Origin: Mustelus asterias
Taxonomy: Eukaryota
DNA: 64,000 bases
Direction: 5' to 3'
Assembly (NCBI RefSeq): GCF_964213995.1
Contig: NC_135821.1
Coordinates: 46,128,001 to 46,192,000 of the forward strand
Under the pieces are notes generated by a model. That model saw only the letters and a program-made list of their open reading frames with translations. It was not told the DNA's origin and did no database searches. The translations under genes were made by a program, and so were the position numbers. This document shows, piece after piece, positions 22,238-61,015 of this stretch. Positions within the stretch are counted from its first letter, which is position 1; each line of letters opens with the position of its first letter.

Positions 22238-22410
22238 GGGAGAGAATAGAGCCAGCGTTTCGAATCGAGGTGACTCTTCGTCAAGTTCTGACGAAGGGTC
22301 ATCTAGGCGCGAAACGTCAGCTCTATTCTCTTCCCCACCAGATGCTGTCAGACCTGCTGAGATTTTCCAGCATTTTCTGTTTTTGTTTCACATTCCAGCA
22401 TCCGCTTATT
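22238..22410 (+). mobile_element. Penelope-type terminal repeat fragment with inverted arm
   Basis: Imperfect palindrome 22238-22336, followed by the gatgctgtcagacctgctgagattttccagc tail that also ends the Penelope element near 43860. Confidence 0.7.
22284..22322 (+). ncRNA. Minimal type I hammerhead ribozyme-like motif
   Basis: AGUU-CUGACGA-A-GGGUC-AUCUA-GGCGC-GAA-ACGU-C-AGCU. Stem II has one mismatch and stem III is the palindrome ACGU. Confidence 0.55.
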
Positions 22411-23230
22411 TCTTTCTTCCATGCTTTTCTAACTTTTTCTTTTGCTCCCCCCAATCCACTTTTGTAAGATTATTGTTTTCAATCCAAAAAATTGACAGGT
22501 TGATGCACCACCAACTCCTCCCCACTCATATCTGGACTCTGCTTTCCCCTTTGAACCCGGGTCTCTGGCGCTATGAGGCAGCAGTGCTAACCACAGTGCC
22601 ACCGTGCCACCCAATCATGGACCACACTTAGCAATTTGATTGTTTCAGTCTATATGAAGATTAAAGTCCCTCACAGCTAATACATTGGCTTTATTATAAG
22701 CTCCAATAATTTCTTGTTTCATGTTCTGACCAACTTTGATCTTTGATGCTTTGAACCTGTGATCCACTGTCTAATTATCATAGTTCGATTTAAAGTAATT
22801 TTCTGGATGTATCTATTTGTGCAACTTAAATTAAGTTGCACAAACTTGTGCTAATTATTTTGTATACATAATTCTGTAAGATGATCTCTCAGTCACTTTC
22901 TTTAAAGCATTAAAAGTCCAAGCATTTCCAGTTTTTTTACTTATAATGAAGGCCTTTGATTCTGGGAGTCTGCATTTTGCCTTTTCTCTGAACTGAATCC
23001 AGGCCCTGAAAGTCTCCCTTGTGTCTCGGTGACGAGAACTGAACACACTTTGCAAGGCGTGAATTGATACACATCTGAGCACAAATTCTTCTGATGTAGA
23101 CTGTCCTTTACATTTAGGATTTTAGAAGTAAAGACAGAAGTAGTACATCTGTACAAAACATGGATTGGGCCATAGTTTGAGTTTAGTGCGAAGATTTGGA
23201 CACTCCTCTAAAGGAAGGACATTCAGCCCT

Positions 23231-24012
23231 TAGACCATAAGACATAGGAGCGGAAGTAAGGCCATTCGGCCCATCGAGTCCACTCCACCATTCAATCATG
23301 GTTGATTTCAACTCCATTTACCCACTCTCTCCCCATAGCCCTTAATTCATCGAGAAATCAAGAATTTATCAATTTCTGTCTTGAAGACGCTCAACGTCTC
23401 GGCCTCCACAGCCCTCTGTGGCAATGAATTCCACAGACCCACCACTCTCTGGCTGAAGACATTTCTCCTCATCTCTGTTCTAAAGTGACTCCCTTTTATT
23501 CTAAGGCTGTGCCCCCGCGTCCTAGTCTCCCCTGTTAATGGAAACAACTTCCCTACGTCCATCCTATCTAAGCCGTTCATTATCTTGGAAGTTTCTATCA
23601 GATCTCCCCTCAACCTCCTAAACTCCAATGAATATAATCCCACGATCCTCAGACGTTCATCGTATGTCAGGCCTACCATTCCTGGGATCATCCGTGTGAA
23701 TCTCCGCTGGACCCGCTCCAGTGCCAGTATGTCCTTCCTGAGGTGTGGGGCCCAAAATTGCTCACAGTACTCCAAATGGGGCCTAACCAGTGCTTTATAA
23801 AGCCTCAGAAGTACATCCCTGCTTTTGTATTCCAAGCCTCTTGAGATAAATGACAACATTACATTTGCTTTCTTAATTACGGACTCAACCTGCAAGTTTA
23901 CCTTTAGAGAATCCTGGACTAGGACTCCCAAGTCCCTTTGCACTTTAGCATTATGAATTTTGTCACCGTTTAGAAAATAGTCCATGCCTCTATTCTTTTT
24001 TCCAAAGTGCAT
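23231..24012 (-). mobile_element. Young 5'-truncated CR1 LINE
   Basis: Uninterrupted 221-aa ORF2 C-terminus (LYKALVRPHLEYCEQFW..RTRGHSL) plus 3' UTR. Confidence 0.95.
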
Positions 24013-24403
24013 TTAGTGTAGATTCCAATGATTATGGCAATTATGGAAAAGTGCTGTTGTGAACAGAATCTTTACTTTCTAACTTTGAGTGGAATTTAAT
24101 CCGGGCGAAGAGATCCAGCCCTGCATCGCAGTTGAAGGAGAAGGTATGAATCACCAATTAGGCATTTTAGTAGCCACCATTCAGCCTTTCCCCAAAGAAA
24201 GGAACTCCCCTCTTAAGAGATGCCACCCACTGTGTACTACAACTTTGTTTTCTTCTGTGTCAGTGAAAAGAGTTTGTTCAGGTAATCTGTTGAGTAGCAT
24301 CACAAATTTTCCTGTTATTTATGCCAAACTTGATCCCACCATTATTCTTATTTTATTGATTTCCCTCAGTAATTACCTGTCTTTCCTACAAACTCTTTAT
24401 CTG

Positions 24404-27400
24404 GGCAGAGGGGGGAAGAAGGGAAGTAGTTTGCGGGAGGTAAAGTCCCAAGAACCTTAGTCCTTAAATCTTTGTAACAGATTTGAGGTTCTTGCCACCA
24501 GTGTAGATGGGAAAAATGACTGCGAGAAGGACGAGCAAACTGTCAGCAGTACCAGGGTGCAGGGTGCTGCTGCAATGGAGAAATCAAAGAGAAATGTAGT
24601 AGTAATTGGGGATAGTGTAGTTAAGGGCATAGACACTGTTGTCTGTGACCAGGAGAAGCAATACCGTAGGTTGTGTTGCCTGCCTGGTGCTCGGGTCCAG
24701 GATGTATCATCTGGGCTGCAGAGGAATCTGGAGTGGGAGGGTGAAAATCCAGTTGTCGTGGTCCATGTAGGTGCCAATGACATAGACAAAACAGGAACTA
24801 AGGATCTACAGAGGGAGTACGAAGAGCTGGGGAACAAATTAAAAAGCAGAACCAACAAGGTGGTAATCTCTGGATTACTACCTGAGCCACGTGCAAATTG
24901 GCGCAGGGTTAATAGGATTAAGGAGACGAATGCATGGCTCAAGGATTGGTGTGGGAGGAATGGTTCGAATTCATGGGGCATTGGCACCAGTATTTGGGCA
25001 GATGGGACCTGTATAGATGGGATGGTCTCCGTTTGAACCGTGCTGGGACCAGAGTCCTAGCAAATCGTATCACTAGGGCTGTAGATAGGGCTTTAAACTA
25101 ATTTATGGGTGGGGGGGGTGTGCAGAGGTAAGAAGAATTACGAAATCAATGGTAGAGGAGAGGGAGCGAGTGCAAGTGAATGAGGGCGTTCAAGTAGTTA
25201 AAGGAATAGAGGGTGAGGGAGAGGTTGATAGCGTTTCATCAAATCGGGTCCAGATAAAAGCTGGAATAAAGACACTTTGCCTGAATGCAAGAAGCATTCG
25301 GAACAAAGTTAATGAGTTGATGGTGCAAATCAGCACTAATGGGTACGATCTCGTGGCCATTACAGAAACGTGGCTGCACAGAGACCAGGACTGGGAGATG
25401 AATATCCAGGGGTATCAGGCATTTAGGAAGAATAGACAGGAAGGAAAAGGTGGTGGGGTAGCTCTGTTAATAAAAGATAATATCAGGGTAGTAGTGAGGG
25501 ATGACATAGGCTCTAAGGAACAAAACGTGGAATCGTTATGGGTAGAGATAAGGAATAGTAGGGGGAGAAAGACACTAGTAGGCGTGGTCTATAGGCCCCC
25601 AAATAATAATGTTGAGGTGGGGAGGGCTATAAACAAACAAATAATGGATGCGTGCAAAAACGGAACGGCAATAATCATGGGGGACTTCAACCTGCATATT
25701 GATTGGCTGACTCAAGTTGGAAGGGGTGAGATGGAGGAAGAGTTCTTAGAATGCTGTCGGGATAGTTACCTTGAACAGAATGTTACAGAACCGACGAGGG
25801 AACGAGTTATCTTAGATCTGGTAATGTGTAACGAGGTAGGTAGAATTAAGGATGTTCTTGTGAAGGACCCTCTTGGGTCAAGTGATCACAATATGGTCAA
25901 ATTTCTGATACAAATGGAAGAGGAGAAAGTAGGGTCCCATACCACTGTCCTCTGTTTGAACAGAGGGAAGTACGATAGGATGAGGGCTGAATTGGCTAAG
26001 GTGGACTGGGAGAGCAGACTGGTAGGTAGGACAGCTGAGGAACAGTGGAGGATTTTTAAGGAGATCCTTTTCAGTACTCAGCAACAATATATTCCGGTGA
26101 TAAAGAAGGGTTGTAAGAAAAGGGATAACCAGCTGTGGATAACGAAGGAAATTAAGGAGAGTATTAAATTAACGACCGATGCGTACAGAGTGGCCAAAAA
26201 TAGTGGAGAATCGGAAGATTGAGAAAACTTGAAGAAACAACAAAGAATGACTAAGAAAGCGATAAAGAAAGGAAAGATAGGTTATGAAGCTAGCTAGCTC
26301 TAAATATAAAAAATGATAGTAAAAGCTTTAACAAATATATAAAAAGGAATAGAGTGGCAAGAGTGAATGTTGGACCCTTGGAGGACGAGAGGGGGGATTT
26401 AATAGTGGGAAATGAGGAAATGGCTGAAACTTTAAATACGTTTTTTGTGTCGGTCTTCACAGTGGAAGACACAAATAGTTGACCAAATATTAACGATAGA
26501 GGGTTGGTAGGAGGACAGGTACTCAATACAATTCATGTTACCAGGGAGGCAGTGCTTGGTAGACTAACGGGACTGAAGGTGGACAAGTCCCCGGGCCTGG
26601 ATGGAATGCATCCCAGGGCACTGAAAGAAATGTCAGTGGTTATTTATCAAAATTCGTTGGATTCTGGGGTAGTGCCGGCGGATTGGAAAATGGCTAATGT
26701 TACGCCGCTGTTTAAAAAAGGAAATAGACAAAAGGCGGGTAACTACAGGCCGGTTAGCTTAACGTCAGTAGTTGGGAAAATGCTGGAATCCATCATTAAG
26801 GAAGAAATAGCAGGCCATCTGGATAAGAATGGTTCGATTAAGCAGACGCAGCATGGATTCATGAGGGGAAAGTCGTGCTTGACGAACTTGTTGGATTTTT
26901 ATGAAGATGTGACTAGTGCGGTTGATGGAGGGGAACCGGTGGATGCGGTGTTTTTGGATTTCCAAAAGGCGTTTGATAAGGTGCCTCACAAAAGGTTGCT
27001 GAAGAAGATTGGGTCACACCAAGTTGGGGGTAGGGTGTTAGCGTGGATTGGGGATTGGCTATCCGACAGGAAGCAGAGAGTCGGAATAAATGGGTGCTTT
27101 TCTGGTTGGCGGATGGTAACTAGTGGCGTGCCTCAGGGATCGGTACTGGGGCCTCAAGTATTTACCATTTATAGAGACGATCTGGAGGAGGGGACTGAGT
27201 GTAAGGTAACAAAGTTTGCAGACGACACAAAGATAAGTGGAAAAGTGAATCGTGTGGAGGGCGTAGAAGGTCTGCAGAGAGATTTGGACAGGCTGAGTGA
27301 GTGGGCGAGGATCTGGCAGTTGGAGTATAACGTTGACAAATGCGAGGTTATTCACTTTGGAAGAAATAATAGCAAATTGGATTATTATCTAAATGGAAAA

Positions 27401-28150
27401 AAATTACAACATGCTACTGTGCAAAGGGACCTGGGGGTCTTTGTGCATGAGATGCAAAAATCCAGTCTGCAGGTGTAACAGGTGATCAAGAAGGCAAATG
27501 GGATGTTGGTCTATATCGCAAGGGGGATAGAATATAAAAGCAGAGATGTCTTGCTGCATCCTCAGGGCATTGGTGAGGCCGCAGCTGGAATACTGTGTGC
27601 AGTATTGTTCCCCTTATTTGCGGAAGGATATATTGGCCTTGGAGGGAGTGCAGAGAAGGTTCACCAGGTTGATACCAGAGATGAGGGGTGTTGATTATGA
27701 GGAGAGACTGAGCAGATTGGGTTTGTATTCGTTGGAATTTAGAAGGCTGAGGGGGGATCTTATAGAGACCTATAAGATAATGAAGGGGCTGGATAGGGTA
27801 GAGATGGAGAGATTCTTTCCACTTAGAAAGGAAACTAGAACGAGAGGGCACAGCCTCAAAATAAAGGGGGGTCAGTTTAGGACAGAGTTGAGGAGGAACT
27901 TCTTCTCTCAGAGGGTGGTGAATCTCTGGAATTCTCTGCCCACTGAAGTGGTGGAGGCTACCTCATTGAATATGTTTAAATCACGGATAGATGGATTCCT
28001 GATCGGTAAGGGAATTAGGGGTTATAGGGATCAGGCAGGTAAGTGGAACTGATCCACTTCAGATCAGCCATGATCTTATTGAATGGCGGGGCAGGCTCAA
28101 GGGGCTAGATGGCCTACTCCTGCTCCTATTTCTTATGTTCTTATGTTCTT
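24404..28150 (+). mobile_element. Near-full-length CR1 LINE: ORF1 SGNH esterase plus ORF2 APE endonuclease/RT, inactivated
   Basis: ORF1 VVVIGDS..CCLPGA..VHVGANDI. Endonuclease LNARS, ITETW, GDFN, SDH. RT NYRPVSL, DFQKAFD, PQGSVLGP, FADD. Stops near 26220, 26480 and 27476 plus frameshifts. Tail (tcttatgt)n. Possible TSD ttatctg. Confidence 0.97.
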
Positions 28151-30489: not shown

Positions 30490-31055
30490 GGAAACAGAGA
30501 AAGCTGGAAAAACTCAGCAGGTCTGGCAGCATTCTTAGGGAGTGAAAATAGAATTAATGTGTTGAGTCCACATGACCCTTCTTCAGAGCTAAAGAGGGGG
30601 AAACGTGATAATATACAAGAGGAGCTGGGAGAGATTGCAACAAAAATGTAGCAAAGCTTGAGAACAAGTGACAGATGGCCTGATGGGGGAGGGGAAGGGA
30701 GGATTTTTTGCATAGGAACAAAAAAAATTGCTATATAATGAAGGTAAAAATGGAGGAGAAAGGCTACAGGCTAAAGCTGTTGGACTCCTGTTGAATCCTG
30801 AGGGTTGTAACGTGCCTAATCGGAAGATGAGGTGCTGCTCCTCCAGTTTGTGTTGGGTTTCACTGGAGTGTTGCATCAGGCCAAGGGGAGACATGAGAAC
30901 AAGATATTAAGTTGAAATAGCAAGCCACGGGAAGGTTGGGGGCTGAGTGAATGTGCTCCACCAAAAGATCCCCCAAGCTGGACTTTTGCTGCGTTTTTCC
31001 AGCTTTCTCTGTTTTTTGTTTCAGATTCCAGCATCCACAGTATTTTGCCATTATA
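30490..31055 (-). mobile_element. Penelope-like element 3' fragment with inverted terminal piece
   Basis: Minus ORF LGLMQHSSETQHKLEEQHLIFRLGTLQPSGFN matches the C-terminus seen at ~43650-43750. Degenerate hammerhead (CTGAAGA-A-GGGTC..GACTC) on the minus strand near 30550-30590. Confidence 0.75.
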
Positions 31056-32801
31056 GTTATCCCTGTACTGCTTATGCACACCCCAACCTCCCAAAGATGC
31101 AATATCATTTTAGGGTTCTAAACCCAACATTTGTTGAAATGTGAACAGAAAATATTAATTATTTTTCACTGCTGGATTTTTGCTGTTTTTTGTAGATTGT
31201 GACCAGTCATTCTCCAATAAATATTGCACTCCATGTGTTATTGTGCTAAAATCGAGCCACACAAATCATGACAATTCATTGAGAAAGTTGCCCTTTGTCC
31301 ACAATTAATTATGCATGAGTTTGAGCTGTACAAAATTTTGAATCAATGTATGTCAAAACTCATTTTTATATCCTTCATCATTCATCTATCTGCAAGTCGA
31401 CACTTGTTTCTGTGATTTGTCAGGCTCTGGTGTAAGTACGTCAGCAGCAGTTATGCTTGTCTGCTGCTAAGATGTCATTGAATCTTGCCGTTCTTGATGG
31501 TGGCAGTGGGCGGGAGGGGTGTGTCGAGGGCAGGGGATCCTTATGATTTTGTATTTCCCATTTTTCCCTTTTCAGTCAAAATTGGTTTACTCATTTTCAA
31601 GACAACAGAACTTTTATTCTCTTCTCACGTTTGCAATGTTGCCATCATTGTGCTAAAGTTGTGTTAGCATTGTCTAAACATTTCATGACTAAACCTGAAG
31701 GAGAATTCTCCAGCCTCCCAGTCGCGTGTTTCCCAGTGGAAGGTGGTGCATTGTTCACTGGCAATGGGATTCTCTGCTCCCACTGCTGTCAATGGGATTT
31801 CCCATTGATGTCTCCCCACACTGTTGCGTAACCCGTGGGAGGGGATGCGCTGCAGCGTGGCTGGAGAATCCCGCCGGCGTGAACGACCAGAGAATTCCAC
31901 CACCCCCCACCACCCCCCCATTCCGTGAAAACTGCATTCTGAATTTGCAGTTGTTGAAACTGAATGCTGGAAAGCAACATTTTGTAAGATGGTTTTCATT
32001 TAATTTTTAAAAGCCTCGAAATGTTGCTCTTTGTGTCTTTCCATTAATGGCCTTGATTTTTTTTCTAAAGCTTCGATTTTACACATGAATATGGAACAGC
32101 ATCTCTCACTGTATGGGAAAGTTCATTAACGTCCTTTCAGGAAGGCAATCTGTTGTCCTTACCCAGTCTGGTATACATGTGACTCCAGATCCACAGCAAT
32201 GACTCTTACATGCCCTGAAGGATGGGCAATAAATGCTGGTCCAGCCAGCGACACCCATCTCTCGTGAATGAATTTTTAAAAAGCTGTTACGGCAAACTCA
32301 GTTATACAACTATCCCATTCTATAATCTTGCAAAAACGTTGACTTCTGGCGAGAATTGAGCAGCACAGAAGAACTGGCCTCATCCTTTTTTAATATTAAA
32401 TGTTAAAACATTGCCAGGCAATGCACAGTTAATGACACCACTTTTATCACTGTGTATATTTGCAAGCCACTTTACCAGACTATAATGTAGATTTAAAAAA
32501 TAATATGTTTGCATTCTGATTATGTATATTGACATACACATAATAACTATGATACCGACTAATTCTGTACATTAAAATGCTCCTAAAAACTGACTGACGA
32601 AGTTAGTTCTTACATCGTTTAGCCTTTATTTCCATTTAGTTATCGTTTTAAATATCTTTATTATTCATCAGCCAAAAAATTCATACATAGCTTCGAAAAT
32701 CAGAAAATGCTGGAAAGATACAGTAGGTCAAGCAGCATCTGTGGCGATAGAAAGAGAGCTCATGTTCATGGTTGACAACCTTTTGCAGACCAGCGCTCTG
32801 A

Positions 32802-33510: not shown

Positions 33511-33642
<132 letters not shown>

Positions 33643-34092: not shown

Positions 34093-35454
34093 TTAATCTC
34101 ACAGATATTTCAGGAAAAGTGCAGGCCGAAATGCCTCAAAGTTAAAAATTAATAAAGTATTTCATGTTCAATTTTCTTCTATAAATTACATTAAAACTAT
34201 GCAAATTGTGCTGTAGCATTAACACAAATACTGCTGGAAACTGATTTCCCATCACTGATCAAAGGTGATTTTTTAGAGAGTGAGAGAAAATCAGAATGTG
34301 AGTAGACCTCTGAGGGGGGAATAGTAGCCATATTCATAATCATACTCAGTGAAAGGGTTCAAAGAGGCACTCAAGCAAAGAAAGCATGTACACAGTTGAA
34401 CTGCAAGACAAGTACATCAGGGCACGGCACTGAAATGTGGGCTGTTAGTTTTCAGACAGAAATCTCTCAGTAAGACAAGGAGAGCCTGTCCAAATGACAG
34501 ATATGGCCTTCAGATAATGTAGGGAGGGGAACTCTGGAGTGTAGGTTTATTTATCTATCCGTGGTTCAATCTGAAAGAATTCATTAAATCAGACATCTGG
34601 ACATTGGAGAGGTATTTGATCCAGACTCACGCTCAGATGTTAAGGACAACAATTTGTAGCAGCAATGAATTTGGTCAGCGAACATGATTGAATCTTCATG
34701 CTGATGAGATATTATAATTAAGCAGGTGTGCAGCAGTGGTGATTGGTGTTTAACATTTTTATCTCATGTATGATGTAACTTTAATCAATAGTTGTGATTG
34801 GTAGAGATATCTCCTATATCTTGATTGGTATATGTTAATTACTTGGAATCGAATCTGAAAGCATATCTGCTTGTGCAATCCTGTGTCCTGGACTCTGGCT
34901 GGACACTAACTGGCTTTCCAGGGTCCTTGCCGTATAGCTTTTTTAAACTGCAGTTTGAAAAACTTTGTGACTTGGTCTGGCTACTTATAGGGAACAAAGT
35001 TGTACTAAATTTAGAAAGGCTGAACATTAAAAAGCCCCAAAAAACCTCCATCACCATTGTAAACTTTCTAGTATCCAGTAGCAGAGTATTATTAGCACAC
35101 ATGGGAAGAGGGCATTGCCCTGGCCTTCTAAAGTAGAAATGAGACATTCAAAGAGGAACTTGAAGGGGAAAAATAACTACAAACAACAAAGATAAATGTT
35201 ACATTGGCCCAAAAATTGTTGTAAAAGGTTAACCATCACAAATGACTGTCAATTACATTGGTATGTGTCCATGTAATGTTGATGGTATTTTGCCCTACAA
35301 GTAGGGGGAAGTATGAAATGGGAACAGTACAGCACTCTCAACAGAGCATTTGGGATCTGAATGAATGGGGTCAGCAATGCTGCACCTTCTGAACTACAGT
35401 AAGAAGTTTAACAACACCAGGTTAAAGTCCAACAGGTTTATTTGGTAGCAAATG

Positions 35455-35493
35455 CCACTAGCTTTCGGAACAGGCTGTCCCTTCGTCAGGTGG
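35455..35493 (-). ncRNA. Minimal type I hammerhead ribozyme-like motif (antisense arm)
   Basis: CCAC-CUGACGA-A-GGGAC-AGCCU-GUUCC-GAA-AGCU-A-GUGG on the minus strand. Confidence 0.65.
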
Positions 35494-35509
35494 CATGCAT
35501 TTCTCCACT

Positions 35510-35548
35510 CCACCTGATGAAGGGACAGCCTGTTCCGAAAGCTAGTGG
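35510..35548 (+). ncRNA. Minimal type I hammerhead ribozyme-like motif
   Basis: CCAC-CUGAUGA-A-GGGAC-AGCCU-GUUCC-GAA-AGCU-A-GUGG. Intact core, stem I CCAC/GUGG, palindromic stem III. Confidence 0.7.
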
Positions 35549-36119
35549 CATTTGCGACCAAATGAACCTGTTGGACTTTAACCTGGTGTTGTTAAACTTC
35601 TTACTGTGTTTACCCCAGTCCAACGCCGGTATCTCCACATCATGACTACCTTCTTAACTAACCATTCTGAAATGAACTAGATGATAAGATTGAAGAAGTT
35701 GAAAAGTGAGTTCAATGTGAAATAAGACACAGAAAGGAAAATAAAGAGAGAAAAAGTAGGATTGGATTGAGAGAGGGAAAACATATAGAAAAAATGTAAA
35801 ATACCAGTTTTACTGTCTAAGTAAAGAATCTTCACACTGCACGATACACTTAAACAGAGAGCGACACAGGAGATGCCATTTTTGTGAAGCTATAGAGCAA
35901 TGCATCTTAAACAGCAACTTCCCTTGTTCCACATTTAATCGCACTACTGCATCCACCTGAAGTTCCTGTGCCCTTTGATCAAAAGTACTGATGAGCACTA
36001 TCAGCCGTGCTGTTAATTGAATAACAATATTTGAGCTAGTATAATTCTTTTCTGACATTTGGCCAGAATCTTCTGGTCATTCATGCTGCTGGAATTCTCT
36101 GGTTCCACTGTAGTGAACA

Positions 36120-37174: not shown

Positions 37175-37540
37175 AGACCGTAAGATATAGGAGCAGAATT
37201 AGGTCATTCGGCCCATTGAGTCTGCCATTCAATCATGGCTGATAGGATTCTCATCCCCATTCTCCTACCTTCTCCCCGGAACCCTTGATCCCCTTATTGA
37301 TCTATCTAACTCTGTCTTTAAGACACTCAATGACCTAGCCTCCACAGCCCTCTGTGGCAATGAGTTCCAATGATTCACCACCCTCTGGCTGAAGAAATTC
37401 CTCCTCATCTCAGTTTTAAAAGAGCGTCCCTTCATGCAGAGGTTGTGCCCTCGGGTTCCAGTCTCTTCCACTAGTGGAAACACCCTCTCCATGTCCACTC
37501 TATCTAGGCTTCTCAGTATTCTGTAACTTTCAATTGAATA
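37175..37540 (-). mobile_element. CR1 3' fragment
   Basis: GTRGHNL..FKTEMRRNFFSQRVVNHWNSLP plus tail. Confidence 0.9.
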
Positions 37541-39005
37541 CTCCCTCCCTTCCCCCCCTCCTCATTCCCTCACCTTCCCCCGCTCCATTCCCTTATTCCT
37601 CCTCCTCCCCATTCCCTCCCCATTCCCTCCCCATTCCCTCCACCCTCCACATTCCCTCCACCCTCCACATTCCCTCCACCCTCCACATTCCCTCCACCCT
37701 CCACATTCCCTCCACCCTCCACATTCCCTCCACCCTCCACATTCCCTCCACCCTCCACATTCCCTCCACCCTCCACATTCCCTCCACCCTCCACATTCCC
37801 TCCACCCTCCACATTCCCTCCCCCCCCATTCCCTCCCCCCCCATTCCCTCCCCCTTCCCCCCATTCCCTCCCCCTTCCCCCCCATTCCCTCCCCCTTCCC
37901 CATTCCCTCCCCCTCCCCATTCCCTCCCCCTCCCCATTCCCTCCCCCCTCCCCATTCCCTCCCCCCTCCACATTCCCTCCCCCCTCCCCATTCCCTCCCC
38001 CCTCCCCATTCCCTCCCCCCTCCCCATTCCCTCCCCCCTCCACATTCCCTCCCCCCCCCATTCCCTCCCCCCTCCACATTCCCTCCCCCCCCATTCCCTC
38101 CCCCCCCATTCCCTCCCCCCCCATTCCCTCCCCCCCCATTCCCTCCCCCCCCATTCCCTCCCCCCCCATTCCCTCCCCCCCATTCCCTCCCCCCCATTTC
38201 GTCCCCCCCATTCCCTCCCCCTTCCCCCCCATTCCCTCCCCCCTCCCCCCCCATTCCCTCCCCCCTCCCCCCATTCCCTCCCCCCACCCCATTCCCTCCC
38301 CCTCCCCATTCCCTCCCCCTCCCCATTCCCTCCCCCTCCCCATTCCCTCCCCCTCCCCATTCCCTTCCCCCTCCCCATTCCCTCCCCCTCCCCATTCCCT
38401 CCCCCCTCCCCATTCCCTCCCCCCTCCCCATTCCCTCCCCCCTCCCCATTCCCTCCCCCCTCCCCATTCCCTCCCCCCTCCCCATTCCCTCCCCCTCCCC
38501 ATTCCCTTCCCCCTCCCCATTCCCTCTCCCCTCCCCCCTCCCCATTCCCTCCCCCCTCCCCATTCCCTCCCCCCTCCCCATTCCCTCCCCCTCCCCATTC
38601 CCTCCCCCCTCCCCATTCCCTCCCCCCTCCCCATTCCCTCCCCCCTCCCCATTCCCTCCCCCCTCCCCATTCCCTCCCTATTCCCTCCCCCCTCCCCATT
38701 CCCTCCCCCCTCCCCATTCCCTCCCCCCTCCCCATTCCCTCCCCCCTCCCCATTCCCTCCCCCCTCCCCATTCCCTCCCCCTCCCCATTCCCTCCCCCTC
38801 CCCATTCCCTCCCCCTCCCCATTCCCTCCCCCTCCCCATTCCCTCCCCATTCCCTCCCCCTCCCCATTCCCTCCCCATTCCCTCCCCCTCCCCATTCCCT
38901 CCCCCTCCCCATTCCCTCCCCCTCCCTATTCCCTCCCTATTCCCTCCCCCTACCCATTCCCTCCCCCTACCCATTCCCTCCCCCTCCCCATTCTCTCCCC
39001 CCTCC
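37541..39005. repeat. C-rich minisatellite built on a CATTCCCTCC core (12-18-bp units)
   Basis: About ten perfect 18-mers (ccacattccctccaccct) at ~37627-37815, then variable ccccattccctcc(c)n(t) units. Confidence 0.97.
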
Positions 39006-39009
39006 AATA

Positions 39010-40820: not shown

Positions 40821-40832
40821 TACTTTTTTTAT

Positions 40833-42289: not shown

Positions 42290-43935
42290 TCACATCAACA
42301 ATTTCCAGTTCCCCGGCCCCAACCGTCTCCTCTTTACCATAGATATTCAATCCCTCTGTCCCTCCATTCCCCGTAAGAAGCCTCACAACACCAGGTTCAA
42401 GTCCAACAGGTTTACTTGGTAGCAAATACCATAAGCTTTCGGAGCACTGCTCCTTCGTCAGATGGAGTGGAAATGTGCTCTCGTTTCCCATTCCCCACCA
42501 TGATGGCCTGAGAGCTCTCCATGTCTTCCTTAAACACAGGCCTGAACACTCCCTGTCCATCACCACTCTCCTCCATTTGGCTGAACTTGTTCTCTCAATG
42601 AACAATTTCTCCTTTAACTTGTCTCACTTCCTCCAAATAAAAGATGTTGCTATGGGCACCCCCATAATGCTACTTATGCTTGTCTCTTTATGAGATATGT
42701 GGAACTTTCTTTTTCCAGTCCTACTCCGCCCCCTCCCTCAACTCTTTCATCGGTGCATTGACAATTATTTTGGTGATATTTCATGTTCTTGTCTGGACCT
42801 GGAAAATCTATCACCTTCACTTCCAATTTCCGCCCCTCTATCACCTTCACACGGTCCAACTCTGACACTCCCTTCCCTTTCTTGACCACTCTGACTCCAT
42901 TTATAGCGATGGACTGTCCACCAGTATCCATTACAAGCCCACCGACTCCCACACCTACCTTAACTACAACTCTTCACACCCCACTCCATCCCATTCTCTC
43001 ATTTCCTCTGGCGCATTTGTTGCAATGACGCCACTTCTCAAAATGGCGCTGCTGATATGCCTTCCTTCTCCCTTCATTGTGATTTTCCATCCACTATAGT
43101 TGACAGGGCTCTCAACCATGTCTGACCCATCTCCCGTGCCTCACCCCTTCCCTTCCCTCCCAGAAGCAGCATAGGGTCCCCCTTTCCTCACTTTTCACCC
43201 CTCCAGCCTCCGCATTCCAAGGATCAGCTTCCGCCATTTCCACCAACTCCAGCATGATGCCACCTCCAAATACATCTTCCCCTCACTACCCCTGTCAGTA
43301 TTCTGTAGGGACCATTCCCTCGAGGATACCCTGGTCCACTCCTCTATCACACCCAACATCTCACCCCCTTCCCACGTTACCTTCCCATGCAAAATCTGCC
43401 CCTTTACCTTCTTCCTGCTCACCATCCCAGGTCCTAAACACTCCTTTCAGGTGAAGCAGTGCTTCATATGCGCCTCCTTCTAATCTGGTCGAATGCATTT
43501 GCTGCTCCCAATGCAGTCTACTCTACATCAGTGAGACCAAACGCAGACTGGGTGACCACTTTGTTGAACACCTTCGGTCCATCCGCAATCATGACCCAGA
43601 CCTTCCTTCACTTGCCACTTCAACACACCTGCTCTCCTGTCCATATGTCCATCGTTGGCCTTTTGCAATGTTGCAGTGAAGCCCAATACAAACTGGAGGA
43701 ACAACACCTGACCTAATGAGATGTTTACAGCCTTCCAGACTTAACACTGAGTTCAACGACTTCAGAGCATGAACTCTCCCCTCCACCTTCATCCCATTTC
43801 CATCTATGTATTTATTTATTTTAAATTTTAATTTCTTCCACTGTTTCATTTTTCATGCTGTCAGACCTGCTGAGATTTTTCAGCATTTTCTGTTTTTGTT
43901 TCAGATTCCAGCATCCGCAGTATTTTGCTTTTTAT
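42290..43935 (+). mobile_element. Degraded Penelope-like element (RT plus GIY-YIG endonuclease)
   Basis: LLFTIDIQSL, ELVLSMNNFSFN, VAMGT, degenerate RYIDD and LYISETKRRLGDHFVEHL (GIY-YIG), then the C-terminal KLEEQHL. Confidence 0.85.
42429..42465 (-). ncRNA. Minimal hammerhead ribozyme-like motif within a 115-bp insertion (42373-42487)
   Basis: CCAU-CUGACGA-A-GGAGC-AGU-GCUCC-GAA-AGCU-U-AUGG. The insertion is flanked by the 9-bp TSD ccattcccc. Confidence 0.65.
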
Positions 43936-44338
43936 TTAAGTGGCTCAGTTGGGGTAGCCGCAACACCAGAGTTCCTGCCGTGGTAGCTGCCTCCCGATGC
44001 CATCCCCCACCATACAACCAGCCATCCCACCTTCGAGCATGCATCTATTGGATTGGGAAAGTTCAGTCCTGTGCTATTGTACTGCCCATTGTATGGAGCA
44101 CAAGTTTTCTTCAAGATTTCCTCATGCTGCCTTTTATATATTCTGGGTTTTATGGGAGAGCTTTTTTCCAAAGTTGTATTCTCCAGAATTAAAGTTAGAA
44201 ATGAAAAGGGTATTGGGTAAGATCCTTGCTTCTCAGATGACCCAGTTTTCAGGTTCCTATTCTATGCAATCAGCAGCCTGTGGAACTACTTGGCCCTTAT
44301 GTACTCCACAGATAAAGATTCCCTGTCTATTTCACAAG

Positions 44339-44598
44339 CTGTGGAGATGCCAGCGTTGGGGTGGACACAGTAAGAAGTCTCACAACACTGGGTTAAAGTC
44401 CAACAGGTTTATTTGGAATCACGAGCTTTCGGAGTGAGTCTCACATTCCAACCATTATCTTGCAATTGTGTCTTTGTCTATATATGCCGTGTTTGTGAAA
44501 CCTACCCCTCCACTCACCTGATGAAGGAGCAGTGCTCCGAAAGCTCGTGATTCCAAATAAACCTGTTGGACTTTAACCTGGTGTTGTGAGACTTATTA
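44339..44598. mobile_element. Penelope-derived mini-insertion with inverted termini
   Basis: Inverted arms at ~44375-44435 and ~44535-44594. Exact 12-bp TSD ctatttcacaag at 44327-44338 and 44599-44610. Confidence 0.8.
44514..44550 (+). ncRNA. Minimal type I hammerhead ribozyme-like motif
   Basis: UCAC-CUGAUGA-A-GGAGC-AGU-GCUCC-GAA-AGCU-C-GUGA. Intact core, perfect stems I and II, and a UC cleavage site. Confidence 0.72.
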
Positions 44599-44719
44599 CT
44601 ATTTCACAAGGTTTATGGATGAACAGCCAGATGAAGTGAAGCTACATGAAACATGAAGCTGCTCTCAAATACTTTCATAAGAGATCCCAACAATGTTCAG
44701 GCAGGAAACAACAAAAGAA

Positions 44720-46672: not shown

Positions 46673-47587
46673 TTCATAGTAACTTCATTGCTGTGTTACT
46701 GGAAGCCTACTTGTGACATGAATAAAAATTTAAAAATATAGGAAAGCACAATGGTGCATTTTCATTATGAGCGAATTGAAAACATTCCTTGCCATTTTCC
46801 CGGCCTCAATACTTGCTTGAAACATTTTGCACCTGTAGCTTTTTCCAGTCTGGTGAAAGGTCATGGACTTGAAACATGTAACTGTCTGCCTCGCCCCAGA
46901 TGCTGCCTGACCTGCTGAGTATTTCCACCATTTTCAATTTTTATTTCGGACTTCCAACAAATCACCTTCAAACAGCATCAGCCCTTTCAACTTTCCCCAA
47001 CAGGTATGATAGTTATCTTGGTGGAGATGAAATCCTGTCACACACCCATAATTAGCCTGCTGGTGCTAATCCCAGTGAAGGGATTCTTAAAATGAACACT
47101 CTGAAGGGGCACAGGGGGAGCGATCCAGAGATTAATGTGCAAATAATAGGATATGGTTCTCAAATTGGAAAGGTGCAGTAAGTTACCACACCGGCCTTTC
47201 ATCCCCGTTTGAATCCAGACTGAACACAGCACGAGCTAAAATGACAAGTGAGCCTTTACTGAACTACAAATGTTCCTTTCCAAGAGAAGCAATTTCAGTT
47301 GCAATCTCCTGAAAACTGACACACTGGGGAGTTAGCACGATAAAACAACTGCAGGGATCTGAATCTGATAGCTAAGGCTTAGGAACCAAATAAAATGTGC
47401 AAAGGTAACAAGGAATCGATTGGAATCTGCCTGACAATGTTGTGGCATTGAATGTGCAGCTGAGCAATGTTGGAGAAGTGCCAGCGGCTTGTTACCTGGG
47501 AACAATAGCGTACCATTGTGGAGGAGGCTGAGCAGAAGAACTCGGCTAACTGTAGCAGCTGCTAAATGGCCTTCTCATCGGACAAAG

Positions 47588-47893
47588 AGCAGTGGCCTTA
47601 GTGGTATTATCGCTAGACTATAAACCCAGAAGCTCAGCTAATGATCTGGGGTCCCGGGTTCAAATCCCGCCACGGCGGATGGTGGAATTGGAATTCAAGA
47701 AACAATAATCTGGAATGAAGAATCTACTGATGACCATGAACCCATTGTTGATTGCTCTTTATTTGAGGTATGCACTGATTCAGTCAGGTGCAAGACTGAC
47801 CAACAGGGTGCAGCATTGGAAGAAGCTAATTGCCCAGGGGTCACCTGACCCACACTTCTAAAGGGGCAGTCCGCACCCCAAACCTCAACATAC

Positions 47894-47933
<40 letters not shown>

Positions 47934-48240
47934 TATAGCACAGAACCAATCCTTTAATTGTCTCTGCCTTGATCTTGTGGCTGGAAATTATCCTCAGTCT
48001 TGGTGTCTGGAATCCTGTTCAGCATAATCAATTGTTCCTCACCTGGACTAATGCCTTTCAGGGAAGGAAATCTGTCGCCTTACCTGGTCTGGCCTATGTG
48101 TTGGCCACTCAGTTGCGTCAGGCACTGTGGGTCAACCCACAGCACATGGACTGCAGCATTTCAAGAAGGCGGCTCACCACCACCTTCTCAAGGGCAACTG
48201 GGGATGGACAATAAATACGCATCACCCATGAATAAATGAA
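47588..48240 (+). mobile_element. tRNA-headed SINE with LINE tail, interrupted by a templated insertion
   Basis: Head tagtggtattatcgctagact..gggttcaaatccc (also at ~6535-6610). The body resumes at actaatgcctttcagggaagg. Confidence 0.7.
47896..47930. repeat. (TA)n microsatellite
   Basis: About 17 TA units. A mirrored copy lies at ~48766-48800. Confidence 0.95.
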
Positions 48241-48762
48241 GAGAAAAATTTAAACACCCATCCAAATGGGGGTGAGGGGGAATAAGGTTTGCCAGAATCT
48301 CCCCCTCACCAAGATCACAAATTGGTTTCTCATTGACCGGAAGTGGAAGCTACCAACTGAATAGAAACTGACCTTGTTTGGAACCATTGCCAGAGATGGA
48401 ACAGTATTGATCGCTGGAAAATTGATTGGTGGAATTTTCCAGTCACGTGTATATTGAAATTTCAAACAGTAGAACAAAGTTTGACTTTTCAAAGACAGGT
48501 TGTATCGAAAGAGGCTGTGATATACGCTTTAGAATTTAGGAAAAGGTGATTCTGAAATCAAGGAGCTGGATTCTCCTTTTTAGGATGGAGGTGCAGCAAG
48601 ACAGACATCCCCCGACCATCCAACTCTGCACCTGCCATGGTCCATTTCCCCAGGTGAGGAACAATTGATTATGCTGAACAGGATTCCAGACACCAAGACT
48701 GAGGATAATTTCCAGCCACAAGATCAAGGCAGAGACAATTAAAGGATTGGTTCTGTGCTATA

Positions 48763-48802
<40 letters not shown>

Positions 48803-49611
48803 GTATGTTGAGGTTTGGGGTGCGGACTGCCCCTTTAGAAGTGTGGGTCAGGTGACCCCTGGGCAATTAGCTTCTTCCAATGTTGCACCCTGTTGGTCAG
48901 CCTTGCACCTGACTGAATCAGTGCACACCTCAAATAAAGAGCTCTCACTGTTCCTACCAAACCTACCTTGTGATTCTTGATGCACCATTAGTCCATAGGG
49001 GCATACATAACAGGTTCCACTAAAGTTCTGATGAGTTATAAGTTTAGTTGTTGAAATCTAATACAACCTTGCTAATTTAGAAAAGATGTCAACGTTCAGA
49101 AGCATACTAGGCTCCAGTTTCTGTCTGTGAGACAGGCTGGGGCTGCTTTGTGTGGATTAAGCTGAACATTGTTGATCTTCATCCTTAGATTTTGAAGCTG
49201 TGTTGGTGACCTGTGGCTCATCCGAACCAGGCTAGTGGCAGGCTGAGAGAGGCCTCTGCAAGTGCGAATGGGTTTTGATAGTCCAATTCTCGTACCAAAG
49301 GAGACACTTCAATTAAACTGCAATAAATCACTCAATATTCACAGTTTTTGGCTCGTGACAAGGGTTTGAGTTACACAGTCGGGGCAGGGTAGAGGGATGG
49401 TACAAACCTCACGTGACTGAAATGCCTCAATGTTGTGTCTTGGTGCAAAGGAGAATAGTTCATGCCTCAGTTTTACCATCTGTCATTTTAATGAGAGAAC
49501 GCATCAGAGAAAAAAAAAGATTAAAAGAAGCCTATCTTTAAGTTGGAAGTTATAAATGATTGAATCCTTCCAGCAGTTGGCAGTGCTACATCAGGTGAAA
49601 TCGCACCTTGA

Positions 49612-49941
<330 letters not shown>

Positions 49942-54715: not shown

Positions 54716-56965
54716 AATGAACCTAAATGATTGTATCGATGATCTTCCTGGAGGTGCTTCCCATCTTGACCACCCTGGGGAAAAACGCGATAGACGTTCT
54801 TGACAAATCTGTGACACGGACAAGTGAGGAGTTGGTGGGAAGGGTTGGGTTTGGGGAATGAATAGTAACAGATCTGAACTAAGTGGCGCCTGTGGACCGG
54901 AGCCGTCCCCGTGTTTCTCTCCAAATTCCATGCCGGGATGTCATCTTAAATCCAATCTTCAAAATAACTTGTGCTTAAGTTATTGCAGTTGGTGCATGAC
55001 GTTGATTGCAGTTGCATTATTAATGTGAAAATCACTTGAATAAAAGTCTTGCGTTTCCACGTTTTGGCCTAATTAATATTATATCTGGCTCTGTTTGAGT
55101 CAGTAATACTTGATTCGTTTTCAAGGAGCGCAATATTACAATTGCTGCTTTGTTTGCTCCCATTCAACATTTTGAAATTTGCACAGCAGAAATACATACA
55201 GTTATCTGGCTGTTGCAAAGCTGGCAAGTGTTCAATTTCCCTGTCCCAAAGCTCCTTTGATCAAGAGCGACTGGCAGAGTTCAGAGAAGAAATGGTAACT
55301 TGTTTTAATTTTCGCTCGCTCCCCACAAGGAAGCTTCCCTTTTTCTGGAAGCGATACTTGAAACCTGTGATTAGACTTAGAGAAATTAGTTTTATTCATG
55401 CCATAGGAGCTGATTCAGCTCATGTAGTGTACCTGAAGGGATAATCACAGCTGGCCTCATTCTTGCCAGGGTGAAACGCCCACCACATGTTGTAGTATTC
55501 ACCGGCTAAAAGGAACACTAGGTTGAAATGGAGAAATGAAAATGGACAAATCATTTGTCAGTGAGAGGAGAATACAAATGCCGCACCGATTGCTGTCCTT
55601 TTCAGCCCCACTGGTGACAAAGCCACACTTTCCCATGCGGACAGAACTCGAGCCCCTGTCTTCCAGTTTATGGAGCTGATGAGTGACATAGGAAATGAAT
55701 CGACCCTTGGATGAACTTGAAAACTTGCATCATTTGTGTGGCATGACTGGAACAATTCAATCATAACCGTTTGTGTTCAACCATTTTGTTATTTTGCAAA
55801 TTAATGTTAGGGGAACAAGACTAGAAAAAAAAACCCATTGGAGTCCACTTGGTCAATCATAGAAAGTACTGATTCTGCAATTATATCTGCAACAATTACA
55901 CATGGGGAGTGCACGACAGGTGATAGTCAGTGCATAGGATGTGATTTTCCAGCCACTTGTTCTAGTGGGTGGGAATTCGCAGACTGCATGTCAGTGAATT
56001 TTCTCGATGTTCCCCCTTTAAAGCATTGCAGAATTAGCCTATTTTTCTATGACGTATACGCTTATTTCACCAAGCAACTTACTTGGCTAGTTCCATCTTG
56101 AATTGGTATGCACGGGCCCTTTGGGCATCCTGTTGTGCTCAGGTCCTAACCCCTGTGTGAACCTAAATTGTTGATTTTCCCGCTTTTGAATTTGCCGATA
56201 TTACGGGGGTTAGGGGTACATTTTTCTAAAACCCTTAGAACTGATAAACTCTGAGTATGTCTCTGTCATGCTCCAGGGTAAACCATGGGGTGAACAGGAT
56301 CAAAGGTTATGGGGGAAAGCAGGATTAGTCTGTTGAGTTGGACGATCAGCCATGATCGTGATGAATGGCGTGGTAGGCTCGAAGGGCCGAATGGCCTCCT
56401 CCTGCTCCAATCTTCTATGTTTCTATCTGAGCTTTTTTAATCCCTGCACGTAGCTCATGGACCTAAATCTTGGTATCAGTTTAATTGTCCTCCTCTGTTC
56501 GCTCTCCAAAGTAAAATTGTCTCATTGAAGTTCCTTTTCTCAGATTTTCTCACAAGAAGTGGTCACGTGTTGTCATTGTACTAATTTCCTCGCTGAACCA
56601 GAAAACAATCTCCCGTCTAATTCCTTGAAATGAGTTTTGATCCTGAGAATTATTTGTTTTAAAACAAAACAGCACAAGTCGTAATTGCTATGAGGGCAAC
56701 GATTTAATGAGATGTGTCGCGTCTTCTCTTGTTGAAGTTGACAGCACTGCCATGCCTTTGCAAAACGTATCAAATCTATTTTGAAAGTTGCCACCAGCCT
56801 TAGTCACACACGTACTGTGTACTTATTCTCCTTCAATTTAAGGGAATTGAGATAAAATTTACCATAAATTGACTTTAATGATATTTCTAATGGTATCAAG
56901 ACTTGCGTCCATTCACGGCATCAGATAATTCTTCATACTAATTGAACACAGTTCCACCGTTCTGA

Positions 56966-59035
<2,070 letters not shown>

Positions 59036-59464
59036 ACTGGCTGAATCGCATGCCTTTTTCTGACAAAAGGAACTATGTGCTCCGAGCACCTCATGACCAT
59101 TTCGAAAGTGAAATGAATCACTAACACCAGATAATGGGGAGCTAACAATTCCACTTTGTTTTTATTCTTGGATGGAATTTTCCCAGCGCTCCCCCCCTCC
59201 CCCCACAATGGGACCTTCGGGTCCTACTGAAGGTGACCCCTGCCTCAGGTTCATTGGTGGCAGGATGGGTGAACCATGCAAAAATGCCGTATACTTCAAA
59301 GAGACCGGAAGATCCCACCTGCGGCCAATGGCAATCTGCTTCCCCCTCCCCCACAGGAAAATCTGCAATGGAGAGGGCTGCAAATTTTGCCCGATGAAGA
59401 AATACAAAAATGATGTATTTCTCCACAGTGCCCCCCGCTTGCAAAATCCATTACTGTTAAGAAG

Positions 59465-59830
59465 GAAGACTTGCATTTTTACAGCACCTTTGATAACCTC
59501 AGGATTCTCGAAAGTGTTTTACAGCCAATTATGTACCTTGTGAAGTGTCGTCGCTGTTGGATGTAAGGAACACAGCATCCAATTATCATACAACACAGGT
59601 CCCCAAAACCAACGTGTTAATGCCCAGCTAATAATGTGATTTCAGAGATAAATATTGGCCAGGACACTGGAGAAAACTTCTCTGTTGTGGAGTATTTTAC
59701 TTCCACCGAAAGGGCAGATGGGGCCTCGATTTAATGTTGCATTCAAAGAATGGCACATCAGACAGCGCAATATTCCATCAGTAATGCTGTGAAGTGTCGG
59801 CATGGGTCATGTACTTATGGAAAGTATGTG
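59465..59830 (-). mobile_element. Old Deu-domain SINE
   Basis: gacttgcatttttacagcacc tail and gggcagatggggcctcgatttaa core. Confidence 0.55.
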
Positions 59831-59907
59831 TTCACCTAAAAAAAATAGTCATTTAGTTGTACAGAACTTGCATATTGCAGAAAAAAGACATTTCGTCAAC
59901 ACTGAGG

Positions 59908-60256
59908 GATGGCAGGGTAGCACAATGGTTAGCGCTGCCTCACAGTGCCAGGAACCCGGGTTCAATGCTTTGGGTGACTGTCTGTGTGGAGTTTATACGT
60001 TCTCCCAGTGTCTGCGTCAGTTTCCTCTGGGAGCTTTGGTTTCCTCCCACACTCCAAAGATGTGCAGGTTAGCTGGATTGTCCATGTTAACCTGTCCCCC
60101 TAGTATCCTAAAATGTGTAGGTTAGGTGGATTAGTCATGATAAACGTACAGGGTAACAGGGATGGGAGGGAAGGCCTGGGCAAGATGTTCTTTCGGAGAA
60201 TCGGTGCAGACTCGATAGGCCGAAAGGCTCTTTCTGCACTGTAGGGATTCTATGAT
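59908..60256 (+). mobile_element. HE1/V-SINE-type SINE
   Basis: Head, core and tail homology. Confidence 0.8.
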
Positions 60257-61015
60257 CTTGTATTCATCAGGGCAATTACAAGGGTATCAAAGTTGGGAAA
60301 GCAACAACTTTATACTGTATGAGAAGAGCATGGTGATTAGTTGGCAAATGGACACTGATTGGCCAAGGCATTTTCATGGAAAATTCACCAGTTGTTAGTG
60401 ACCGCTAATTAACTGCCAAGCATTGTTTGAGCATTTTTAATCAGGCAGCTTGACTGATTGGCCAAGGCATTGCCCTGAGGAATGAACCAGTGAATGGCTA
60501 TTACTTATTTTGTTTAACTGAAACAGGCACAAGGTGGGTACAGGTTCTTCCTGTCTGCAAAGAACAATGTCCTGTATATTGATATTTGTAGTTTCCAGTG
60601 CATGCAAATGTGAGCCTGACTGACAATCTTAAATTGGTTGTCAAAGTAATTATTAGCACACTAAGGATTATTTCATGAATGTTGCCCACATACGAATCAC
60701 ATCCAACGTGGGACATTGTGTTGAGTTTTAAAAGCACAGCATGATCTGTACCTTGCCCATTGTAAACAGCACAAGGGAAATGCTGTTTGATACAATCCTC
60801 CAGTCATTTGGAATATATGGCTTACTGTGAGTCAGCATTAACTGGTGAAATCTCCATGGCAACAACTCTGCCAATCAGAGTCCACTTGCCAACCAATCAA
60901 CACATGCTTCTCATTAGGTATAGAGTTGTTGTTTCCCCTGACAGTGGTATTCTTGTGATTGTCCTGCTGAGTGAAAGATGAAAAGCTTTGACAAAACGTG
61001 CCTTTTCAGCAACAC
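60257..61015 (-). mobile_element. Penelope-like 3' fragment (distinct family) with inverted terminal repeats
   Basis: Minus strand HLHALETTNINIQDIVLCRQ resembles a PLE C-terminus. ~60257-60392 and ~60840-60980 are diverged inverted copies, each with a hammerhead-like CTG(A/C)TGA. Confidence 0.6.

What the first reader, a model, noticed from the sequence alone, without database searches (positions are those of the whole stretch)
22284..60995. Covarying hammerhead motifs recur across the CSMD2 introns
Seen: stem I covaries between copies around a conserved core: UCAC/GUGA (44514), CCAC/GUGG (35510), CCAU/AUGG (42429, minus), AGUU/AGCU (22284) and UUGUC/GACAA (~60959-60993, core A6 mutated). Stem III is palindromic in all five (AGCU, ACGU or AAGCUU). 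Degenerate copies lie near 30550-30590 and 46850. Compensatory change argues the fold was selected in the source elements. At least three copies with an intact core are sense to the pre-mRNA. Inference: they could cleave intronic RNA co-transcriptionally, possibly by pairing between copies through the palindromic stem III.
Basis: partly seen in the sequence, partly recalled or inferred. Interest (0 to 1): 0.7.

Follow-up and report, generated by a model that had tools for sequence, protein, structure and literature searches.

The report
Penelope ribozyme relics in shark introns
These tiny self-cutting RNA motifs are real, but they are leftover ends of a very common jumping gene, no denser in this shark gene than elsewhere, and the copies facing the gene's direction are predicted to be zipped into hairpins, so they likely do not cut its RNA.

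Summary
The five motifs are at the stated places and beyond chance (strict descriptor: 4 hits, 0 in 30 shuffles). They are minimal type-I hammerheads in the terminal repeats (pLTRs) of Penelope-like retroelements (PLEs), described in 2014 with the same extra base, palindromic helix III, dimer model and covariation. One core pattern matches 145,556 times in this genome (2.5 per 64 kb), so the window is not enriched (P about 0.2). Covariation is real between subfamilies, but single copies lose core bases as fast as neighbouring bases (1.9% against 2.0%). One insertion is absent from a relative. Only 35510 and 44514 could pair as a dimer. Co-transcriptional cutting of this pre-mRNA is unlikely. 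One weak lead remains: unpaired family-A ends in the gene run 3 sense to 12 antisense (p=0.035; 3 to 8 outside the discovery region, p=0.23). The scan has found such inverted PLE stubs before on other DNA (58 notes). No raw RNA reads were available.

The parts
22060..22134 (+). CSMD2-like exon (host gene)
   Evidence: Match to P0121 and AG/GT ends in frame with the next exon
22238..22283 (-). Antisense twin arm of family-B pLTR; its own hammerhead is dead (C3 and U16.1 changed)
   Evidence: 36 of 46 bases match the sense copy
22284..22322 (+). Family-B minimal hammerhead: core intact, stem II damaged, helix III strand ACGU
   Evidence: predicted buried in hairpin with 22238-22283
22323..22408 (+). 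Rest of family-B pLTR end; possible 10-bp target duplication 22224-22233 / 22409-22418 (T-rich, weak)
   Evidence: (3,052 first-look candidates)
30492..31048 (.). Decayed inverted family-B insertion with degenerate hammerhead (30550-30590, minus), an endonuclease fragment (30830-30884) and an 11-bp duplication with one mismatch
32696..32790 (-).
33554..33641 (+). CSMD2-like exon
35384..35660 (.). Head-to-head family-A insertion: arms 35396-35493 and 35510-35607 (95 of 98 identical), one-sided tail to about 35647, 13-bp target duplication 35384-35396 / 35648-35660
   Evidence: empty site in organism H
35455..35493 (-).
35510..35548 (+). Intact family-A minimal hammerhead, sense; predicted cut 35544/35545
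   Evidence: P(unpaired) 0.0 at all 15 core positions in context
42373..42471 (-). Unpaired family-A pLTR end with intact hammerhead 42429-42465, antisense to the gene
42490..43770 (+). Decayed PLE ORF remnant (reverse transcriptase thumb to GIY-YIG endonuclease), many stops and frameshifts
   Evidence: tblastn to PLE proteins, best E 1e-12
43855..43935 (+). Family-B pLTR end following that ORF, hammerhead deleted
   Evidence: 62 of 64 identical to 22342-22405
44327..44612 (.). Head-to-head family-A insertion: tail on the left, antisense arm 44369-44434 (63 of 66), target duplication of 12 exact bases (14 with one mismatch)
44514..44550 (+). Intact family-A minimal hammerhead, sense; predicted cut 44546/44547; AATAAA follows at 44556
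   Evidence: GAAAGCUC half fully paired with the arm
46845..46960 (+). Degenerate family-B pLTR end
49665..49789 (+). CSMD2-like exon (Sushi)
56991..57112 (+). CSMD2-like exon (start of CUB domain)
   Evidence: Pfam CUB E 1e-7; 98% to CSMD2-like
60255..60506 (-). Second, older family-C copy, hammerhead-like motif cut short
60824..61021 (+). Family-C repeat end holding the 60959-60993 motif (A6 changed to C; stem II only 2 bp in the family)
   Evidence: 1,205 candidates; 661 exact intact-core copies

Best explanation
The motifs are minimal hammerhead ribozyme sequences in the ends of Penelope-like retroelements that inserted into this shark gene at the genome's background density, and they are likely inert here. 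Shown: family A lies about 200 bases after a 682-aa reverse transcriptase plus GIY-YIG frame elsewhere in the genome; insertions have target duplications, one-sided tails and head-to-head arms; subfamilies keep the core and change stems in compensated pairs. Inferred from published work: in an active element two neighbouring pLTR ribozymes would pair through the palindromic helix III, probably helped by the element's protein, to trim the element's RNA. Predicted: in the CSMD2 pre-mRNA the antisense arm is made first and would zip up the sense ribozyme in a long hairpin, so it cannot fold or find a partner. After insertion the copies appear to decay without selection.
For: ORF link: L080-L083, with RVT_1; homologues carry RVT_1 and GIY-YIG, closest named ones are shark proteins. 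Abundance: 50,819 exact 28-mers and 145,556 core-pattern matches, reversed controls 0. No enrichment: 30 strict hits in 799.6 kb of 80 evenly placed stretches, 2.4 per 64 kb; window 4, P=0.22; 7 in 204 kb around the window against 7.7 expected. Covariation: 4 of 9 pairs change on both sides, 26 cells against 4.8 shuffled. Neutral decay: core 10 of 539, downstream bases 30 of 1470, Fisher p=0.86. Hairpins: stem I probability 0.0 for 3 of 3 sense intact-core copies; 71, 28 and 33 kcal/mol to free them. Empty site in a relative for 35384-35647 (2 of 2 runs of organism H, one sample). Literature: PMC4209133, PMC8557442, PMC11167929.
Against: No cleavage assay or raw RNA reads were available. Equilibrium folding ignores kinetics, proteins, helicases and A-to-I editing that could open hairpins. 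Isolated 35510 and 44514 are dimer-compatible (11 of 12 intermolecular pairs). The right end of the 44327-44612 insertion seems shared with organism H (a contig starts 27 bases inside it, under the 31-base rule). Unpaired family-A ends in the gene lean antisense (3 against 12), which hints that unpaired sense copies are not fully neutral. Both rates in the decay test are biased low by the way copies were collected. Family C has no linked ORF (0 of 30 loci; the one PLE hit was a family-A fragment).
Confidence: 0.9

Rival explanations
1. Unpaired sense copies do harm a host pre-mRNA (by ribozyme cleavage, or by the AATAAA signal just behind the ribozyme) and are purged, while head-to-head insertions are tolerated because the hairpin would hide both signals. 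The window's copies are then survivors, not regulators. This can hold together with the best explanation.
For: In 804 kb of this gene plus 80 kb of a paralogue, unpaired family-A ends are 3 sense and 12 antisense (p=0.035); with intact core 0 and 5 (p=0.06). Family B (16 against 14), a SINE and a LINE end show no antisense lean. A preprint reports retrozymes depleted from Xenopus introns (10.64898/2026.07.22.740005, passages).
Against: The idea came from the 204 kb around the window; in the other 680 kb the count is 3 against 8 (p=0.23). A looser pairing rule gave 1 against 10, so the count depends on the rule. Family B shows 19 against 9 in stretches with no defined orientation, a swing of similar size. 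The paralogue gave no unpaired family-A end. Ribozyme and polyadenylation signal are confounded.
Confidence: 0.25
2. One reading: sense copies cut the nascent CSMD2 intron by pairing between copies through helix III.
For: 35510 and 44514 lie in one intron 9 kb apart with intact cores and can form 4+3+4 intermolecular pairs. PLE hammerheads cleave as dimers in vitro.
Against: Both are predicted to be buried in hairpins. Even free, the heterodimer is 4.5 kcal/mol above the two folded monomers. 22284 pairs with neither (2 of 4 helix III pairs, 1 stem I pair) and lies in another intron. Published activity is low even in tandem dimers; the anole PLE ribozyme needed the element's protein and left no matching RNA-seq ends.
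Confidence: 0.05
3. One or more copies were domesticated as host regulatory elements, like the conserved intronic hammerheads of amniotes.
For: Precedent in RECK and other genes (review passage). One insertion may be shared with a relative. One lies about 100 bases after a splice donor.
Against: Background density, neutral decay of cores, an empty site in a relative, damaged stem II at 22284 and a mutated core at 60959.
Confidence: 0.03

Closest known systems
Minimal type-I hammerheads (min-HHR) of metazoan Penelope-like elements (Cervera and de la Pena 2014, PMC4209133; read parts 1-2 of 4)
   Same: Core CUGANGA/GAAA, extra base between 9 and 10.1, G10.1-C11.1, stem I of 4-5 bp, palindromic 15.2-16.2 without loop 3, covarying families, opposite-strand pairs 100-700 bp apart, place in pLTRs.
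   Different: The parts read name no shark; the highest vertebrate count there is about 9,000 (Xenopus), against about 140,000 here by other methods. Family C has a 2-bp stem II and no extra base.
Complex insertions of EN+ PLEs, Neptune/Nematis type (Craig et al. 2021, PMC8557442; Arkhipova et al. 2013, PMC3846280; passages)
   Same: 5' truncation, inverted pLTR head to head, 30-40-bp one-sided tail, target duplication, RT followed by GIY-YIG, CX2-5CxxC linker (C-x4-C-xx-C at residue 544 of L081).
   Different: Window insertions are ORF-less stubs of about 180-290 bp, or decayed. Neptune was not separated from Nematis by a tree.
PAc, Poseidon element of the green anole (Frangieh et al. 2024, PMC11167929; passages)
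   Same: pLTR hammerhead and tail; copies extend past the cut site, as expected if uncut RNA is the template.
   Different: Other PLE clade; activity was tested there and not here.
Conserved intronic hammerheads of amniotes, e.g. RECK (review passage in PMC6155905)
   Same: Type-I hammerheads inside introns.
   Different: Those are conserved across species; these are minimal, repeated about 140,000 times and at least partly lineage-specific.
Animal non-LTR retrozymes (bioRxiv 10.64898/2026.07.22.740005; passages)
   Same: PLE-derived, hammerhead-bearing, non-coding; present in one cartilaginous fish.
   Different: Retrozymes are direct tandem arrays; these are single or inverted ends.

Membership tests
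PLE minimal type-I hammerhead | Conserved core C3-A9, G12-A15.1, U16.1, H17 | tested here: met
   Met at 22284, 35489, 35510, 42429, 44514; not at 60959 (A6C); 41 of 49 aligned family-A copies intact
PLE minimal type-I hammerhead | Extra base between A9 and G10.1; G10.1-C11.1; stem II of 5 bp or more | tested here: met
   Family A, pairs 96% kept; family B relatives pair, the window copy has one mismatch
PLE minimal type-I hammerhead | Palindromic helix III with no stable loop (dimer type) | tested here: met
   AGCU, ACGU, AAGCUU
PLE minimal type-I hammerhead | Compensatory changes between families of copies | tested here: met
   reflects a few inherited events, and relatedness inflates the shuffle test
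PLE minimal type-I hammerhead | Self-cleavage as a dimer | not testable with these tools
   No assay; only contigs among the listed runs
PLE minimal type-I hammerhead (family C) | Stem II of usual length with G10.1-C11.1 | tested here: not met
   Only G.U and U-A pairs possible; stem I pair 1.5 does covary (UA 12, CG 8 of 30). Filed as hammerhead-like only
EN+ Penelope-like element | ORF with RT followed by GIY-YIG endonuclease, next to the pLTR | tested here: met
   Family A: L080-L083 (Pfam scored RVT_1 only, GIY-YIG seen as motif and in homologues). Family B: window 42490-43935, L041, L051
EN+ Penelope-like element (family C) | ORF next to the repeat end | tested here: inconclusive
   0 of 30 loci of 3 kb; copies are old, 65-80% alike
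EN+ Penelope-like element | Inverted pLTR, one-sided tail, target duplication | tested here: met
   35384-35660 and 44327-44612; duplication confirmed by the empty site
Neptune/Nematis clade | CX2-5CxxC linker before GIY-YIG | tested here: met
   L081 residues 544-552 (definition)
Neptune clade | RT phylogeny with named references | not tested
   No named clade references fetched
Domesticated intronic hammerheads | Orthologous conservation across species | tested here: not met
   35510 insertion absent in organism H; 44514 possibly shared, sequence not recovered

The most novel reading that the evidence does not exclude
Shark genomes carry over 100,000 intact-looking dimer-type ribozymes, and genes tolerate them because the element's head-to-head insertion muzzles itself: the antisense arm is transcribed first and hides the ribozyme and the polyadenylation signal. 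Unpaired sense copies are purged from introns, which would be population-genetic evidence that PLE ends act on host pre-mRNA in vivo.
Probability: 0.2. Interest if true: 0.5.

Novelty: new member of a known kind. Interest (0 to 1): 0.17.

Why it matters
As a CSMD2 feature it matters little: it is retroelement debris at background density. The wider use is as material. About 140,000 copies in dated subfamilies allow a strong covariation model and a genome-wide strand test of whether PLE hammerheads act in vivo, which is open in the papers read (low activity in vitro, no ends seen in RNA-seq). The 2-bp-stem family C is a candidate for a still smaller variant.

Tried and rejected
Rfam scan: no hammerhead family at E up to 1. 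Enrichment in the gene: rejected. Chance origin of the 60959 motif: rejected, it is a repeat family. The longest frame (942 aa) was satellite fused to a truncated ORF. RNA evidence: no RNA holder listed; all 24 runs are contigs, which cannot show ends or strand. Family C link to a PLE ORF: not found. The dimer rows for 60959 were mis-registered and are not used; the 22284 homodimer there was scored without stem II. The paralogue sample (80 kb) held one pair and no unpaired family-A end, so it did not test the strand lead. The 2016 dimer paper by Lunse, Weinberg and Breaker was not held; I saw only its citation and a summary in a review. Searches for prior reports: 'hammerhead ribozyme + shark + Penelope' gave 1 paper, irrelevant use of 'shark'; 'CSMD2 + ribozyme' 1 unrelated listing; 'hammerhead + intron + antisense bias + retrotransposon' 0; two searches gave listings only. 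Supplements of PMC4209133 and of the retrozyme preprint were not seen and may list cartilaginous fish. R-scape was not available.

Full report
Observation. All five motifs are at the stated coordinates with the stated stems and cut sites. A strict descriptor (core, stem II of 4 bp or more, palindromic helix III, stem I with 3 of 4 pairs) found 4 motifs in the window (35489 minus, 35514 plus, 42461 minus, 44518 plus, numbered at C3) and none in each of 30 shuffles. The 22284 copy fails it through a stem II mismatch, the 60959 copy through its core change. Rfam gave no hammerhead. The host gene has + strand exons at 22060-22134, 33554-33641, 49665-49789 and 56991-57112. The last is 98% identical to a ray protein named CSMD2-like, the best of 3 hits. 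CUB and Sushi exons of the gene span at least C21:45.03-46.80 Mb. Paralogue identity rests on that one name. The organism is a shark by the closest named proteins.

Three repeat families. Family A holds 35489, 35510, 42429 and 44514; family B holds 22284 and the degenerate copies near 30590, 32740 and 46850; family C holds 60959 and a shortened copy near 60270. Each has many dispersed copies: 831, 3,052 and 1,205 first-look candidates.

What they are. Upstream of family-A copies lies the end of a GIY-YIG frame; a 68-aa piece of it had 43,715 first-look candidates. L080 and L081 hold a 682-aa frame with RVT_1, a C-x4-C-xx-C linker, and the hammerhead about 200 bases after the stop. Of the best 120 of 1,828 homologues, most carry RVT_1 and some GIY-YIG. 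Family B follows a decayed PLE frame in the window (42490-43935). Insertions show the PLE layout described in PMC8557442 and PMC3846280 (passages): head-to-head arms, a one-sided tail, and target duplications of 13 bases at 35384/35648 and 12-14 bases at 44327/44599. PMC4209133 (parts 1-2 of 4) already describes these ribozymes: extra base at 9/10.1, palindromic 15.2-16.2, short stem I, covarying families, opposite-strand pairs, dimer action and low activity. Family C has no ORF in 30 of 30 loci and a 2-bp stem II, though its stem I pair 1.5 is U-A in 12 and C-G in 8 of 30 (loci were picked by an intact-core pattern). I file it as hammerhead-like.

Not special to this gene. One exact 28-base pattern matches 50,819 times and a looser core pattern 145,556 times in 3.68 Gb, evenly on both strands, reversed controls 0. 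In 80 evenly placed 10-kb stretches the strict descriptor found 30 motifs, 2.4 per 64 kb, or about 138,000 genome-wide. Four in the window has P=0.22; the 204 kb around it holds 7 against 7.7 expected.

Selection in the source, not in the host. Family-A copies were collected by a downstream anchor without ribozyme bases: 73 anchors, 57 passing a filter for a retained upstream region, 8 more dropped by eye as truncated, 49 aligned. Stems I and II are 93.6% paired; 4 of 9 pairs change on both sides; 26 such cells against 4.8 in shuffles; slid controls give 26-50%. These are a few inherited events, so the shuffle test overstates them. Six subfamily consensuses differ at 15 of 39 columns and at none of 11 core positions. 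Within subfamilies the core differs at 10 of 539 sites and the anchor at 30 of 1470 (p=0.86): decay without sign of selection, with both rates biased low. A relative about 8% diverged (organism H, two runs of one sample) has contigs running from 35383 straight to 35648, so that insertion is lineage-specific. For the 44514 insertion its contigs start 27 bases inside the right end, a weak hint of sharing.

Can they cut the pre-mRNA? Each sense copy with an intact core follows an antisense twin that is transcribed first. In context stem I has probability 0.0 in 3 of 3; the whole core of 35510, the GAAAGCUC half of 44514 and 12 of 15 positions of 22284 are paired. Without the arm, stem I rises to 0.72 for 35510 and 0.25 for 44514. 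Freeing the ribozyme costs 71, 28 and 33 kcal/mol. In a dimer, stem I forms between copies, so partners must match there too: 35510 with 44514 gives 11 of 12 pairs but lies 4.5 kcal/mol above the monomers; 22284 matches neither. These are secondary-structure predictions without tertiary or kinetic terms. The anole PLE ribozyme cut only with the element's protein, was not needed for insertion, and left no ends in RNA-seq (PMC11167929, passages). Twins are common: 13 of 30 strict hits in the sample have one upstream within 3 kb. No raw RNA reads were available.

A lead. Around the window every sense family-A end was paired. I then counted 804 kb of the gene and 80 kb of a paralogue. With one-to-one pairing, 60 of 75 ends are in 30 pairs; the unpaired ones are 3 sense and 12 antisense (p=0.035), 3 and 8 outside the discovery region (p=0.23), 0 and 5 with intact core (p=0.06). 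A looser rule gave 1 and 10. Family B, a SINE and a LINE end show no antisense lean, but family B swings 19 to 9 in unoriented stretches, so chance is not excluded. An AATAAA follows the ribozyme (44556), so polyadenylation could explain a real bias as well as cleavage. My searches found no report of this.

Earlier notes. After forming my reading I looked it up: 58 notes in at least 10 genomes match, and the 8 shown describe inverted PLE stubs in shark introns, some with the same hairpin argument. None lies near this window. They agree but are not independent evidence.

Verdict. Observation confirmed; interpretation partly supported. New members of a known kind, likely inert in this gene. Interest 0.17.

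Noticed in passing
window 47749-48947: Inverted repeat with 305-base arms, 97% complementary, 589 bases apart, each arm holding a (TA)n run; looks like a young non-autonomous DNA transposon (label inferred).
   Followed up: no
window 4768-6131: Inverted repeat with 127-base arms, 98% complementary, 1,110 bases apart.
   Followed up: no
window 37537-39005: 1.4-kb C-rich minisatellite, 18-base unit, about 80 copies; G-rich on the minus strand.
   Followed up: no
window 24461-28052 and 23347-24012: LINE remnants with endonuclease and reverse transcriptase frames (CR1-like by recall), in both orientations.
   Followed up: no
window 10103, 17322, 20117, 28908, 46355, 51298, 59931 and others: Many copies of a tRNA-like SINE; used as an orientation control.
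   Followed up: partly
window 42373-43935: A family-A end sits head to head with a family-B ORF remnant: a nested or chimeric insertion of two PLE families.
   Followed up: partly
window 60255-61021; L178-L207: Family C: old repeat with CCAAT-like and TATA-like motifs upstream of a hammerhead-like core with a 2-bp stem II; 661 exact intact-core copies; the two window copies face head to head about 600 bases apart. Parent element not found.
   Followed up: partly
L101, L112, L125, L132, L153, L175, L176: Several family-B copies share the same altered core start (UUUGACAA in place of CUGANGA), suggesting a subfamily that spread without a standard ribozyme core.
   Followed up: no
L078 and another locus: Family-A insertions lie inside arrays of a short-period satellite, which may be a preferred target.
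   Followed up: no
window 22234-22408: The family-B hairpin starts about 100 bases after the splice donor of the 22060-22134 exon.
   Followed up: no
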